A stretch of 64,000 nt of DNA from Candidatus Dormiibacterota bacterium (GTDB taxonomy: Bacteria; Chloroflexota; Dormibacteria; CF-121): NCBI GenBank assembly GCA_035716185.1, contig DASTJZ010000075.1, positions 59,467 through 123,466 on the forward strand. Direction: 5' to 3'. The notes under the pieces were generated by a model, which was given only the letters and a program-made list of their open reading frames with translations, had not been told where the DNA came from and searched no databases. A program made the position numbers and the translations under genes. Positions 48,203-49,268 of this stretch are shown here, piece by piece (the first letter of the stretch is position 1; the number at the start of each line of letters is the position of its first letter).

Positions 48203-49268
48203 CTTCGACTACGACCTGCCCAATGAGCTGATCGCCCAGCATCCGCTCGATGAGCGCGATGCCGCACGCATGCTGGTCGTCGATCCGAATGCGGACGAGC
48301 TCGTCCATGCGAGGGTGCGCGATCTGCCGCGATATCTGAATCCTGGAGATGTCCTCGTCCTCAATGACAGCCGCGTGTTGCCGGCGCGCCTGCTTGGGCA
48401 GCGAGCGGGTGGGGGAGGGGCCGAGCTGCTACTGCTTCGTCCGGTCGATGGCGGGTCGCAACGCTGGGAGGCGCTGATCCGGCCGGCTCGCCGGCTCGAC
48501 CCCGGATCACGGATCCAGTTCGAGGGGTCCAGGCTGGCCGTGACCGTCGATGAACGTCGCGGCGAAACCGCCGTGGTCCGTCTGAACGGCGTGGCAGATC
48601 CCCTTGCTGAGGTCCGGCGCATCGGGGAGATGCCGACGCCGCCCTACATCAAAGAGCACCTTGCCGACCCGGAGCGGTACCAGACCGTGTTCGCGCGAGT
48701 GGAAGGCTCGGCGGCCGCGCCGACCGCCGGCCTGCATTTCACGCCCGAATTGCTGGCCGCAGTAAGGGCGCGCGGCGTCGAGGTGGCCTTCGTGACGCTG
48801 CACGTCGGGCTGGACACCTTTCGACCGGTGCGCGTGGAGAATCCCACCGAGCACCACATCCATCGCGAGTGGTTCAGCCTCGACGAAGAAACGGCGCGGA
48901 TGATTGGCGAGACGCGTTCGCGCGGAGGTCGTGTGGTGGCCGTAGGGACGACCTGCGTCCGAGTGCTCGAGAGCGCTGCCAGGGATGACACCGTCGTCGC
49001 CGACGAGCGATGGACCGAGCTACTCATCCTTCCCGGCCATCGCTTTCGAGTCGTCGATGCGCTCCTGACAAATTTCCATCTCCCGAAAAGCACCCTGCTG
49101 ATGCTGGTCAGTGCCTTTGCTGGCCGCGATCGCATCCTGGCGGCCTATCGCGAGGCGATCGCGAAGCACTATCGGTTCTACAGTTTCGGCGACTGCATGT
49201 TCGTCATGGGAAGAAGCCCCCACCCCGACCCTCCCCCGCGAGCGGGGGAGGGAGCCACGAACGAGTGA
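48189..49268 (+). CDS. queA: S-adenosylmethionine:tRNA ribosyltransferase-isomerase
   Basis: TTG start [31 protein letters not shown]...; unusual C-terminal tail ...[17 protein letters not shown]. Confidence 0.9.

What the first reader, a model, noticed from the sequence alone, without database searches (positions are those of the whole stretch)
49217..49254. GC-rich C-box/G-box inverted-repeat element translated in frame at the 3' end of queA (copy 1 of at least 3)
The sequence cccccaccccgaCCCTCCCCCGCgaGCGGGGGAGGGagcc has an 11-bp perfect inverted repeat (49229-39 / 49242-52) preceded by a second C-box. It encodes the non-conserved QueA tail [13 protein letters not shown].

Nearly the same DNA and peptide recur at the nusA 3' end (54315-54345, SPHPKPPPEGDG). 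A third copy lies inside the YegS-like kinase gene (61027-61061, QPPPRPSPQGGGRD), in a different reading frame relative to the element.

The same architecture ([C-box]-[C-box]-short loop-[G-box]) in three unrelated genes and two frames points to a DNA-level repeat (REP/MITE-like palindromic unit) tolerated in coding sequence. Shared protein ancestry would not explain it.

A half copy, gcgagcgggtgggggagggg, is at 48398-48420.

Caveat: Pro-then-Gly codon runs in high-GC DNA generate some C-run/G-run complementarity on their own.
Basis: seen in the sequence. Interest (0 to 1): 0.58.

Follow-up and report, generated by a model that had tools for sequence, protein, structure and literature searches.

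The report
Three-box GC-rich repeat translated inside genes
The palindrome in the QueA tail is a real copy of a short GC-rich dispersed DNA repeat of the known BoxC / PIT "intrastrand triplex motif" kind, found across many bacterial phyla, which in this soil lineage often sits inside genes and is translated as a Pro-then-Gly peptide.

Summary
At 49217-49252 the sequence is CCCCCACCCC-GA-CCCTCCCCCGC-GA-GCGGGGGAGGG, with a perfect 11-bp inverted repeat. A second intact copy lies in a DAGK/YegS-like gene (61027-61059). A decayed copy lies in the NusA tail (54315-54347). The "half copy" at 48398-48420 is not a copy.

It is a DNA-level repeat, not a protein motif:
- Orthologues show presence/absence, including an exact +30 nt difference in the kinase loop.
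- The same DNA is read in different frames.
- Relatives carry untranslated intergenic copies.
- The element is 92% identical between genomes whose adjacent queA third codon positions are 47% identical.

The three-box design is not lineage-specific. On the G-rich strand it reads pyrimidine arm, loop, purine arm, short loop, mirror G-box. That is the class II G/C-rich intrastrand triplex motif (BoxC/PIT/TMECO, Holder 2015), and it is also a G-quadruplex motif. It fails the strict E. coli TMECO consensus.

The new part is the habit. In soil metagenome contigs, roughly half of copies overlap predicted ORFs, in both orientations. Six of six checked cases lie inside Pfam domains.

Function and spreading mechanism remain unknown. 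A local role as Shine-Dalgarno site or coupling hairpin for tgt is possible but untested.

The parts
49217..49252 (.). Copy 1, intact three-box element. Boxes: C' CCCCCACCCC (49217-26), linker GA, C arm CCCTCCCCCGC (49229-39), loop GA, G arm GCGGGGGAGGG (49242-52). On the minus strand it reads CCCTCCCCCG-CTCG-CGGGGGAGGG-TCG-GGGTGGGGGC.
   Evidence: class II triplex register of 10 triads with 1 mismatch, plus the G4 motif GGGGGAGGGTCGGGGTGGGGG on the antisense strand; 9-bp RNA hairpin; the 81-nt context folds with z = -2.9.
48189..49268 (+). queA ORF (longest ORF; true start not verified). Its last 17 codons ([17 protein letters not shown]) are the element-coded, non-conserved tail (the first 13, [13 protein letters not shown]) plus the run-on to the stop.
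   Evidence: PF02547 homologues; 68 of 120 orthologues end within 6 residues of GDCMxI.
49265..50377 (+). tgt. GTG start overlaps the queA stop (GTGA). The G arm (contains GGAGG) ends 12 nt upstream.
   Evidence: the conserved N-terminus (V/M)xxFELxAEE aligns with tgt of relatives.
54315..54347 (.). Copy 2, decayed element in the NusA C-terminal tail: CCCTCACCCC-AAG-CCTCCCCC-GGA-GGGGGACGG.
   Evidence: only 8 triads with 2 mismatches. L244 has a perfect copy at the orthologous position, L245 a slightly decayed one, L247 none.
53272..54411 (+). nusA ORF carrying copy 2 after the conserved GWRIDIKPT(V/A)E end of the KH region.
61027..61059 (.). Copy 3, intact element inside the DAGK/YegS-like gene: C' CCCCCTCCCC (61027-36), GT, C arm CCCTCCCC (61039-46), loop ACAA(G), G arm GGGGAGGG (61052-59).
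   Evidence: 9 triads with 1 mismatch; G4 motif on the antisense strand; exactly +30 nt compared with the empty orthologous site.
60694..61740 (+). DAGK_cat/YegS_C lipid-kinase ORF (longest ORF; orthologues of 295-316 aa suggest a later start). The element codes for a loop insert between NGLL and PRFGALL.
   Evidence: in the AF2 model the insert (model residues 82-95) is coil between helix 68-80 and strand 98-102; pLDDT is 69-79 there against 93 or more in the flanks.

Best explanation
**What it is.** Each site is a copy of a short (about 33-36 nt), non-coding-by-origin, dispersed DNA repeat of the BoxC / PIT / G/C-rich intrastrand-triplex-motif class. It has three boxes.
- On the G-rich strand (here the template strand of all three host genes) it reads: pyrimidine arm CCCTCCCC(C), loop of 3-8 nt, purine arm (G)GGGGAGGG, loop of 2-3 nt, mirror-image box GGG(T/A)GGGG.
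- When single-stranded this can fold as a GC hairpin, as a purine-motif (class II) intramolecular triplex, or as a four-tract G-quadruplex.
- The mRNA strand carries C'-C-loop-G and folds as a 9-bp hairpin.

**How it behaves.**
- Shown: the element is gained, lost, duplicated and kept nearly identical at the nucleotide level, independently of the host protein.
- Shown: it contains no stop codon in any of the six frames.
- Shown: its translations are Pro-rich then Gly/Arg-rich.
- Inferred: it survives where a flexible 10-13-residue peptide is harmless, namely C-terminal tails that run into the next cistron, and surface loops. The peptide itself has no function.
- Inferred and weakest step: how it spreads. 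No transposase, terminal repeats or target duplication were seen. Structure-provoked replication or repair events (slippage, template switching or gene conversion between copies) are the most likely route, as proposed for E. coli TMs.
- Possible secondary use at this site (inferred): the purine arm contains GGAGG and lies 0-12 nt upstream of the tgt start in all four filled junctions. It may have been co-opted as the tgt ribosome-binding site, occluded by the C arm until a ribosome finishing queA melts the hairpin.
For: **Architecture**
- Copies 1 and 3 satisfy class II triplex rules (9-10 triads, at most 1 mismatch, loops 1-5 nt). They also match G3+N1-7 x4 on the antisense strand. The window has 2 such motifs against 0 in 30 shuffles.
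- In 160 unselected CCCTCCCC-loop-GGGGAGGG hairpins, 47 carry the third box on the triplex-compatible side and 0 on the incompatible side.
- The central base of that box is A/T in 49 of 51 cases. This is what T.A-T / A.A-T triads require.

**Known class**
- PMC4666352 describes BoxC = PIT = TMECO: 5'-CCCTCNCCC-N3-6-GGGNGAGGG-N3-GGGNGAGGG-3'. There are 3610 copies in 262 proteobacterial genomes. It forms a triplex in vitro, and its loci are hypervariable between strains.
- PMC8044849 describes the mirrored archaeal version. That paper notes that E. coli and D. radiodurans PQS have a C-tract on the 5' side, as here.

**DNA-level, not protein-level**
- The element is 33/36 identical between the window and L246. 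The adjacent 600 nt of queA are 73% identical, and 47% at third positions.
- The same DNA is read in different frames.
- Intergenic copies in relatives: yebC|ruvC, tgt|secD, ruvB|queA.
- Presence/absence among close orthologues.
- Tandem duplications in some QueA tails.

**Wide distribution**

**Tolerated in coding sequence**
- No stops in six frames of copies 1 and 3.
- Of 86 high-GC metagenome copies, 42 overlap predicted ORFs, in both orientations.
- Six of six interior cases lie inside one continuous Pfam domain match: ArgG, acetate kinase, Mg-chelatase AAA, Pyr_redox_3, SDR, hydantoinase.
- The kinase insert is a lower-confidence coil loop in an otherwise confident AF2 model.

**SD idea**
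- G arm to tgt start spacing is 0-12 nt in the window, L002, L003 and L246.
Against: - No insertion mechanism, donor or mobilising gene was identified. The filled/empty comparison is between sequences about 82% identical and shows no clean boundaries.
- The same junctions are occupied in many lineages: the queA tail in 52 of 120 orthologues, and the NusA tail in 4 of 5 loci. A purely selfish element need not do that. Ancient insertion with maintenance, a hotspot, or local function are all possible.
- Triplex or G4 folding in cells is unproven. In E. coli, in vivo DMS footprinting did not detect the triplex, and PIT elements showed no promoter or terminator activity (PMC4666352).
- The strict TMECO consensus is not matched.
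- The metagenome position statistics rest on my own GC-frame ORF caller. It reproduced the real calls on L244 but is crude.
- The source genome as a whole could not be scanned. The copy number of about 1 per 15-20 kb is extrapolated from 190 kb.
Confidence: 0.75

Rival explanations
1. The element is a selected cis-acting mRNA element at cistron junctions. The hairpin hides a strong Shine-Dalgarno sequence (GGAGG in the G arm) behind an anti-SD mimic (CCTCC in the C arm). This would enforce translational coupling of queA to tgt (and nusA to ylxR), or protect the upstream mRNA from 3' exonucleases as some REPs do. Dispersal would be secondary.
For: - The G arm lies 0-12 nt before the tgt start in all four filled junctions. 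It lies 3 nt before the called ylxR start in L244 and about 10 nt before queA in L246.
- All 7 independent sites in the syntenic Dormiibacterota-like loci are at gene 3' ends or junctions, with the same strand sense.
- The hairpin is stable in RNA.
- The queA tail is occupied in 52 of 120 orthologues.
Against: - Copy 3 and at least six verified metagenome copies are deep inside genes with no start codon nearby.
- Other intergenic copies sit 34-45 nt from the next start (L002 7799, L244 12144).
- In the wider sample both orientations occur, with no sense bias: 16 sense against 26 antisense within ORFs.
- Empty junctions work with a simple GTGA/ATGA overlap.
- E. coli PIT elements had no promoter or terminator activity (PMC4666352).
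- The third box has no role in this model, yet it is the conserved hallmark.
Confidence: 0.2
2. The element is a classical transposase-mobilised element: a REP/REPIN moved by a RAYT (IS200/IS605-like) enzyme, or a MITE moved in trans by an IS transposase.
For: - It is short, GC-rich, palindromic and multi-copy. It is mostly at gene 3' ends or intergenic (about 72% intergenic in the GTDB sample).
- Inverted pairs and tandem copies occur.
- Presence/absence polymorphism.
Against: - No 5' GT(A/G)G head typical of RAYT-bound REPs (sequence reading).
- No terminal inverted repeats beyond the hairpin itself.
- No target-site duplication at the filled/empty kinase site.
- Holder et al. found no association of TMECO with transposons, phages or plasmids.
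- Near-identical boxes across more than ten phyla are unlike REPs, which are species-specific.
Confidence: 0.08
3. The peptide is a conserved protein motif (a functional Pro-rich/Gly-rich tail or linker) and the nucleotide palindrome is a by-product. Alternatively it is a chance product of Pro-then-Gly codon runs in 64% GC DNA.
For: - Pro codons (CCN) followed by Gly codons (GGN) do generate C-run/G-run complementarity.
- The peptides are superficially similar ([11 protein letters not shown] and SPHPKPPP..GDG).
Against: - Three different frames and both strands are used.
- Untranslated intergenic copies exist.
- The DNA is far more conserved than synonymous sites of the same gene.
- Zero occurrences in shuffles.
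- Most orthologues lack the peptide altogether.
Confidence: 0.02

Closest known systems
BoxC / PIT element / TMECO: the G/C-rich class II intrastrand triplex motif of E. coli and other Proteobacteria (Bergler 1992; Hoyne & Maher 2000, 2002; Holder et al. 2015, PMC4666352)
   Same: - Same order of three 9-nt boxes on the G-rich strand: pyrimidine arm, 3-6-nt loop, purine arm, 3-nt loop, mirror G-box.
- Even the same first arm (CCCTCNCCC covers CCCTCCCCC).
- Dispersed, multi-copy, far above shuffled expectation.
- Loci hypervariable between relatives: deleted, mutated, or palindromic double versions.
- No linked transposase and no known function.
   Different: - The purine arm here has one A (GGGGGAGGG / GGGTGGGGG) rather than GGGNGAGGG twice, so the strict consensus fails.
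- The host is a Dormiibacterota-like soil bacterium, not a proteobacterium.
- E. coli copies are 'always intergenic'. Here, and in soil metagenomes, many are translated inside genes.
Repetitive potential G-quadruplex sequences (rPQS) of Methanomicrobiaceae archaea (Chashchina et al. 2021, PMC8044849)
   Same: - Nearly the same boxes: GGGGTGGGG, GGGGAGGGG, CCCTCCC.
- Four G-tracts plus a complementary C-tract.
- Hairpin, triplex and G4 equilibrium shown in vitro.
- Located near gene ends.
   Different: - Mirror order: G'-G-loop-C, a class I arrangement with the C-tract 3' of the PQS.
- Archaeal.
- All copies intergenic.
Rickettsia palindromic elements (RPE; Ogata et al. 2000; discussed in PMC1779305, PMC2229807)
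   Same: A palindromic selfish repeat inserted in frame into unrelated protein-coding genes, giving lineage-specific peptide inserts at tolerated surface positions. This is the best behavioural analogue.
   Different: - RPEs are about 100-150 bp, AT-rich, unrelated in sequence and confined to Rickettsia.
- They have no triplex/G4 box design.
REP / BIME / REPIN elements with RAYT transposases
   Same: Short GC-rich extragenic palindromes, mostly just downstream of genes. Some act as mRNA stabilisers.
   Different: - REPs carry a conserved GT(A/G)G head.
- They are species-specific and are linked to a RAYT gene.
- None of this was seen here (RAYT not searched genome-wide).
MIRU, mycobacterial interspersed repetitive units (Supply et al. 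1997; recalled from memory, not checked here)
   Same: Intercistronic repeats in operons that contain short ORFs whose ends overlap the stop and start codons of the flanking genes, as at queA|tgt.
   Different: - 40-100 bp tandem units.
- Unrelated sequence with no three-box structure.
- Not found inside domains.

Membership tests
G/C-rich class II intrastrand triplex motif (ITxF criteria of Holder et al. 2015) | 5'-pyrimidine domain, loop (1-6 nt), purine domain, loop (1-6 nt), reverse-Hoogsteen domain. Stems 6-15 nt with at most 1 mismatch. Triads are C-G.G, T-A.A or T-A.T. | tested here: met
   antisense strand.
- Copy 1: 10 triads, 1 mismatch, loops CTCG and TCG.
- Copy 3: 9 triads, 1 mismatch, loops CTTGT and C.
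- Copy 2 fails (8 triads, 2 mismatches), so it is a decayed copy.
G/C-rich class II intrastrand triplex motif (ITxF criteria of Holder et al. 2015) | Over-represented relative to scrambled sequence, and multi-copy. | tested here: met
   - 2 in the window against 0 in 30 dinucleotide shuffles.
- 13 copies in 190 kb of related loci.
- Caps reached in genome and metagenome scans.
G/C-rich class II intrastrand triplex motif (ITxF criteria of Holder et al. 2015) | The single strand actually folds as a triplex (CD/NMR). | not testable with these tools
   Only the sequence rules could be checked. ViennaRNA models hairpins only.
TMECO / BoxC in the strict sense | Consensus CCCTCNCCC-N3-6-GGGNGAGGG-N3-GGGNGAGGG. 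| tested here: not met
   A regex search on all three copies found no match. The purine arm has a single A, so the third box is GGGTGGGGG rather than GGGNGAGGG.
TMECO / BoxC in the strict sense | Always intergenic, with no strand bias (E. coli MG1655). | tested here: not met
   - All three window copies are inside ORFs.
- 42 of 86 metagenome copies overlap predicted ORFs.
- The lack of strand bias is met in the wide sample.
Canonical G-quadruplex motif | Four G-tracts of 3 or more, with loops of 1-7 nt, on one strand. | tested here: met
   both on the antisense strand:
- copy 1: GGGGGAGGGTCGGGGTGGGGG
- copy 3: GGGGAGGGACGGGGAGGGGG
- copy 2: none

Folding was not testable.
REP / REPIN (RAYT-associated) | Conserved 5' GT(A/G)G tetranucleotide next to the palindrome. 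| tested here: not met
   Flanks of the window copies and of 147 GTDB copies show no GTAG head.
REP / REPIN (RAYT-associated) | A cognate RAYT gene in the genome, flanked by the repeats. | not tested
   Only 64 kb of the source genome is available, and no transposase search was made.
MITE | Terminal inverted repeats plus target-site duplication. Clean filled/empty sites. | tested here: inconclusive
   The kinase site is exactly +30 nt, but the flanks are diverged (about 82% identity) and no duplication is visible. The only inverted repeat is the hairpin itself.
Rickettsia palindromic elements | A palindromic repeat of about 100-150 bp, specific to Rickettsia. | tested here: not met
   The element is 33-36 nt and GC-rich, and the host is not Rickettsia. 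Only the behaviour (in-frame insertion) is shared.
Rfam RNA families | A match to a curated covariance model. | tested here: not met
   No relevant match, even at E <= 10, across 48000-62000.

The most novel reading that the evidence does not exclude
A single structure-specified element (hairpin / purine triplex / G-quadruplex three-box unit) may be shared by more than ten bacterial phyla, with a mirrored form in methanogenic archaea. It may spread by a transposase-independent, DNA-structure-driven route. In high-GC soil bacteria it would routinely write 10-13-residue Pro/Gly peptides, in either orientation and any frame, into tails and loops of housekeeping enzymes (QueA, NusA, ArgG, acetate kinase and others). 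That would make it a general generator of protein indels and occasionally of ribosome-binding sites.
Probability: 0.25. Interest if true: 0.7.

Novelty: new member of a known kind. Interest (0 to 1): 0.42.

Why it matters
**An old open question.** BoxC/PIT/triplex-motif repeats have been known for thirty years without a function or a spreading mechanism. In E. coli they are described as strictly intergenic.

**What these data add.**
- The same three-box design is present across many phyla.
- In a Dormiibacterota-like lineage and other soil bacteria it is frequently translated inside real genes. There are many natural filled and empty alleles.
- Such alleles make the insertion mechanism and any strand or structure dependence tractable by comparative genomics.

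**Practical value.**
- It explains a common class of odd Pro/Gly-rich tails and loop inserts in metagenomic proteins ([12 protein letters not shown], PSPxGGGQGGG and similar).
- It flags likely mis-called starts and ORF extensions around these stop-free elements.

Tried and rejected
1. **Rfam**, at permissive threshold over 48-62 kb and over the nested second repeat: nothing relevant.
2. **Further decayed copies in the window.** nhmmer with a profile of 88 copies found none beyond the three. The repeat finder did not list the element among its 25 longest inverted repeats.
3. **Half copy at 48398-48420.** Rejected: it is a conserved protein position with no indel.
4. **'C-rich strand is always the sense strand.'** True for 7 independent sites in the syntenic loci. 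It did not hold in 86 metagenome copies, so I dropped it as a property of the family.
5. **Strict TMECO membership.** The consensus is not matched. BLAST of the element against E. coli genomes gave no hit (short, low-complexity query).
6. **Target-site duplication or clean boundaries at the kinase site.** Not seen.
7. **Intrinsic terminator.** No T-run follows any window copy. PIT elements lacked terminator activity in E. coli (PMC4666352).
8. **First crude ORF caller**. It over-called antisense ORFs. I replaced it with a GC1/2/3-ordered caller, validated on L244.
9. **Literature search on the bare box sequences and on in-frame palindromes**. These found no description of this element inside bacterial genes.
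Full report
**1. The observation**

Reading the window gives CCCCCACCCC (49217-26), GA, CCCTCCCCCGC (49229-39), GA, GCGGGGGAGGG (49242-52). This is a perfect 11-bp inverted repeat preceded by a second C-box, exactly as reported.

It occupies the last codons of the queA ORF (48189-49268; tail [17 protein letters not shown]). 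The queA stop overlaps a GTG at 49265 that opens tgt.

An intact second copy lies in a DAGK_cat/YegS_C kinase ORF at 61027-61059. It is read in another frame as QPPPRPSPQGGGRD.

A recognisable but decayed copy is in the NusA tail at 54315-54347.

The architecture is far beyond chance.
- CCCTCCCC-N2-10-GGGGAGGG occurs twice against 0 in 100 dinucleotide shuffles.
- The heptamer CCTCCCC alone is not enriched: 13 against 17 expected.
- A profile built from 88 related copies finds only these three places in the 64 kb.

The 'half copy' at 48398-48420 is not a copy.
- It has no C arm and no length difference from orthologues.
- It sits on the conserved QueA motif (RRRDGGEAEVLLLRP in relatives).

**2. 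Host and neighbourhood**

QueA's best hits are 90% identical metagenome proteins. The best named ones (72-75% identity) are from Candidatus Dormiibacterota MAGs.

Seven related contigs share the gene order pheT-cvpA-(3-methyladenine glycosylase)-PBP-tyrS-yebC-ruvCAB-queA-tgt-secDF-rimP-nusA-ylxR-infB. The window is therefore most likely from a Dormiibacterota-like soil bacterium. This is an inference.

**3. A DNA element, not a protein motif**

*QueA tails.*
- Of 120 QueA orthologues, 68 end within six residues of the conserved GDCMxI.
- 52 carry longer tails, such as [25 protein letters not shown] or PHPDPPPQGGRE.
- A few have tandem copies.
- The two closest orthologues (90%) lack the element.

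*Junction DNA.*
- The junction DNA and alignment A1 show a clean presence/absence block. It lies between the QueA C-terminus and the conserved tgt N-terminus.
- Empty sites simply have a GTGA or ATGA stop/start overlap.
- The common variant GCCCCCACCCTGCCCTCCCCCGCGAGCGGGGGAGGG differs from the window copy by a 1-nt linker indel. The same DNA is therefore read as ...ALPRERGRE in relatives and ...DPPPRAGEG here.
- In L003 the queA tail holds the 'ACAA-loop' variant, which in the window sits in the kinase gene.

*Conservation.* The element is 33/36 identical between the window and L246. The adjacent 600 nt of queA are 73% identical, and only 47% at third positions.

*Kinase loop.*
- 114 of 120 orthologues have the short loop NGLLRRPxxxxPRF.
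- Only the closest relatives (81% identity or more) carry the insert.
- Others at 82-87% identity lack it.
- Filled sites (window, L369) are exactly 30 nt longer than the empty site L368.

*NusA tails* are perfect (L244), slightly decayed (L245), decayed (window), expanded (L003) or absent (L247).

*Untranslated copies.* Relatives have intergenic copies between yebC and ruvC, tgt and secD, and ruvB and queA, plus one in the tail of the glycosylase gene.

**4. What kind of element**

- The general hairpin did so in viral contigs.
- The three-box pattern did so in GTDB reference genomes.
- The GTDB hits came from Alpha-, Beta-, Gamma- and Deltaproteobacteria, Cyanobacteria, Bacteroidota, Planctomycetota, Chloroflexota, Nitrospirota, Actinomycetota and others.

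So this is not a private MITE of one lineage.

A full-text search on the box sequences led to two papers.
- Chashchina et al. 2021 (PMC8044849) describe a mirrored version in methanogenic archaea.
- That paper points to Holder et al. 2015 (PMC4666352).

Holder et al. treat BoxC, PIT element and TMECO as one thing: a G/C-rich class II intrastrand triplex motif, 5'-CCCTCNCCC-N3-6-GGGNGAGGG-N3-GGGNGAGGG-3'. They report:
- 3610 copies in 262 proteobacterial genomes;
- always intergenic in E. coli;
- triplex formation in vitro;
- no promoter or terminator activity;
- no triplex detected in vivo by DMS;
- loci unusually variable between strains.

I tested the rules directly.
- On the antisense strand, copy 1 reads CCCTCCCCCG-CTCG-CGGGGGAGGG-TCG-GGGTGGGGGC: 10 triads, 1 mismatch, with T opposite the A-T pair.
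- Copy 3 gives 9 triads with 1 mismatch.
- Both are also canonical G4 motifs.
- Copy 2 fails.
- The strict TMECO regex is not matched, because the purine arm has one A instead of two.

An unselected sample supports the three-box design.
- Of 160 hairpins, 47 carry the third box on the triplex/G4-compatible side.
- None carries it on the incompatible side.
- The central base of that box is A or T in 49 of 51 cases.

I therefore file the element under the broad class (G/C-rich class II intrastrand triplex motif repeats), not under TMECO proper.

**5. The new aspect: translation**

Copies 1 and 3 have no stop codon in any of the six frames.

I used a GC1/2/3-ordered ORF caller that reproduces the real gene calls of L244. 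The 86 complete copies in high-GC contigs fall as follows:

| Position | Copies |
|---|---|
| Intergenic | 44 |
| ORF 3' ends | 11 |
| ORF 5' ends | 10 |
| ORF interior | 21 |

Both orientations occur: 16 sense and 26 antisense.

The interior cases give recurrent peptides: SPHPALPRxRGRE and [12 protein letters not shown] on the C-rich strand, and PSPxGGGQGGG, PLPLGEGRVGA and NPPPQAGEGRVGA on the G-rich strand.

Six of six checked interior cases lie inside a single continuous Pfam domain match: argininosuccinate synthase, acetate kinase, Mg-chelatase-type AAA, Pyr_redox_3, a short-chain dehydrogenase and hydantoinase A.

An AlphaFold2 model of the window kinase has mean pLDDT 90.4. It places the insert (model residues 82-95) in a coil between helix 68-80 and strand 98-102. 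pLDDT is 69-79 there against 93 or more in the flanks, which is consistent with a tolerated surface loop.

**6. Mechanism**

*Shown.*
- The unit is gained, lost, duplicated and kept nearly identical at the nucleotide level, irrespective of frame, strand or host gene.
- It persists in tails, junctions and loops.

*Inferred.*
- The peptide is incidental.
- The element is tolerated because it is stop-free and encodes flexible Pro/Gly segments.
- It spreads or is homogenised by structure-provoked replication or repair events rather than by a transposase. I saw no terminal repeats, no GTAG head and no target duplication. Holder et al. saw no link to mobile elements.

*Local possibility.*
- The purine arm contains GGAGG and lies 0-12 nt upstream of the tgt start in all four filled junctions.
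- In L246 it is 6 nt before a conserved ATG (MFELLAEE) that the gene caller missed.
- The RNA hairpin is stable: a 9-bp stem, and z = -2.9 for the 81-nt context of copy 1.
- A coupling or SD-occlusion role could explain why this junction is so often occupied.
- It cannot explain interior copies, copies 34-45 nt from the next start, or the conserved third box.

**7. Limits**

- The source genome could not be scanned as a whole. Collection scans were capped at 120 loci, so all counts are lower bounds.
- The density of about 1 copy per 15-20 kb comes from 190 kb.
- The uniform sense orientation of the 7 syntenic sites did not generalise.
- Position statistics outside the loci with official gene calls rest on my own ORF caller.
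- Triplex or G4 folding was judged from sequence rules only.

**8. Verdict**

The element is a new-lineage member of a known, functionally unexplained repeat class. The added finding is that it is widely translated within genes.

Interest is moderate. The element is not a new kind of system. The pan-phylum conservation and the in-frame habit are not in the papers I found, and they give a handle on an old open question.

Noticed in passing
L003 16129-16215 (NusA tail); L264 351-440; L273 minus strand about 12926; L369 minus strand about 2979: A second repeat of about 55-60 nt: GACG(T/C)CTCAAACGCTCGC..GCACT..AGCGC.GCTCGCGTGGGCCG.CGGGCCCG.
- In three of four cases it sits nested between the third box and the hairpin of the triplex-type element.
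- It is translated as ...DASNARIA... in L003 NusA. The same peptide signature is in QueA tails P0013, P0069 and P0086.
- No Rfam match.
- It is not present in the window.
   Followed up: partly
QueA orthologues P0010, P0065, P0046: Tails with two or three tandem element-coded units, for example [42 protein letters not shown]. This suggests slippage-type duplication of the hairpin part without the third box. The DNA was not fetched.
   Followed up: no
L246 11067 versus called tgt start 11118: The deposited gene call starts tgt at 11118. A conserved ATG (MFELLAEE, aligned with tgt of all relatives) lies at 11067, 6 nt after the element's G arm, and overlaps the queA stop. Stop-free elements seem to disturb start and stop calling.
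   Followed up: partly
window 49010-50377 and 60694-61740: - ORF listing extends the tgt frame upstream through the stop-free element. This gives a 455-aa ORF from 49010 that reads [15 protein letters not shown] across copy 1.
- The longest kinase ORF (348 aa) is about 30-50 aa longer at the N-terminus than its orthologues (295-316 aa), so its true start is probably later.
   Followed up: partly
L343 (hydantoinase/oxoprolinase ORF) and L306 (glycosyltransferase-like ORF): Single proteins carry several element-derived inserts of different box variants.
- L343: GLPPPSSGEGGVGEA...APTLPSPVKNGGG and [13 protein letters not shown]...PDPSPQGGGE.
- L306: SPTLSRKRERG, PPSPACGRGAGGEG, PSPTGGGQGGG and PHPNLPPAGEGA.
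   Followed up: no
Cyanobacterial loci L144, L180, L183, L209, L231: In Nostocales genomes of low GC (39-43%) the three-box unit is followed, after about 15-20 nt, by a second C-run/loop hairpin (...ttcccccctttccaa...). This looks like a two-hairpin composite unit.
   Followed up: no
L001 10960-11260 and L001/L247 upstream of queA: - In the closest relative (QueA 89-90% identical) the queA-tgt overlap is replaced by an unrelated spacer of about 140 nt.
- An MFS transporter gene is inserted between ruvB and queA; it is also present in L247.
- The junction is structurally unstable even without the element.
   Followed up: no
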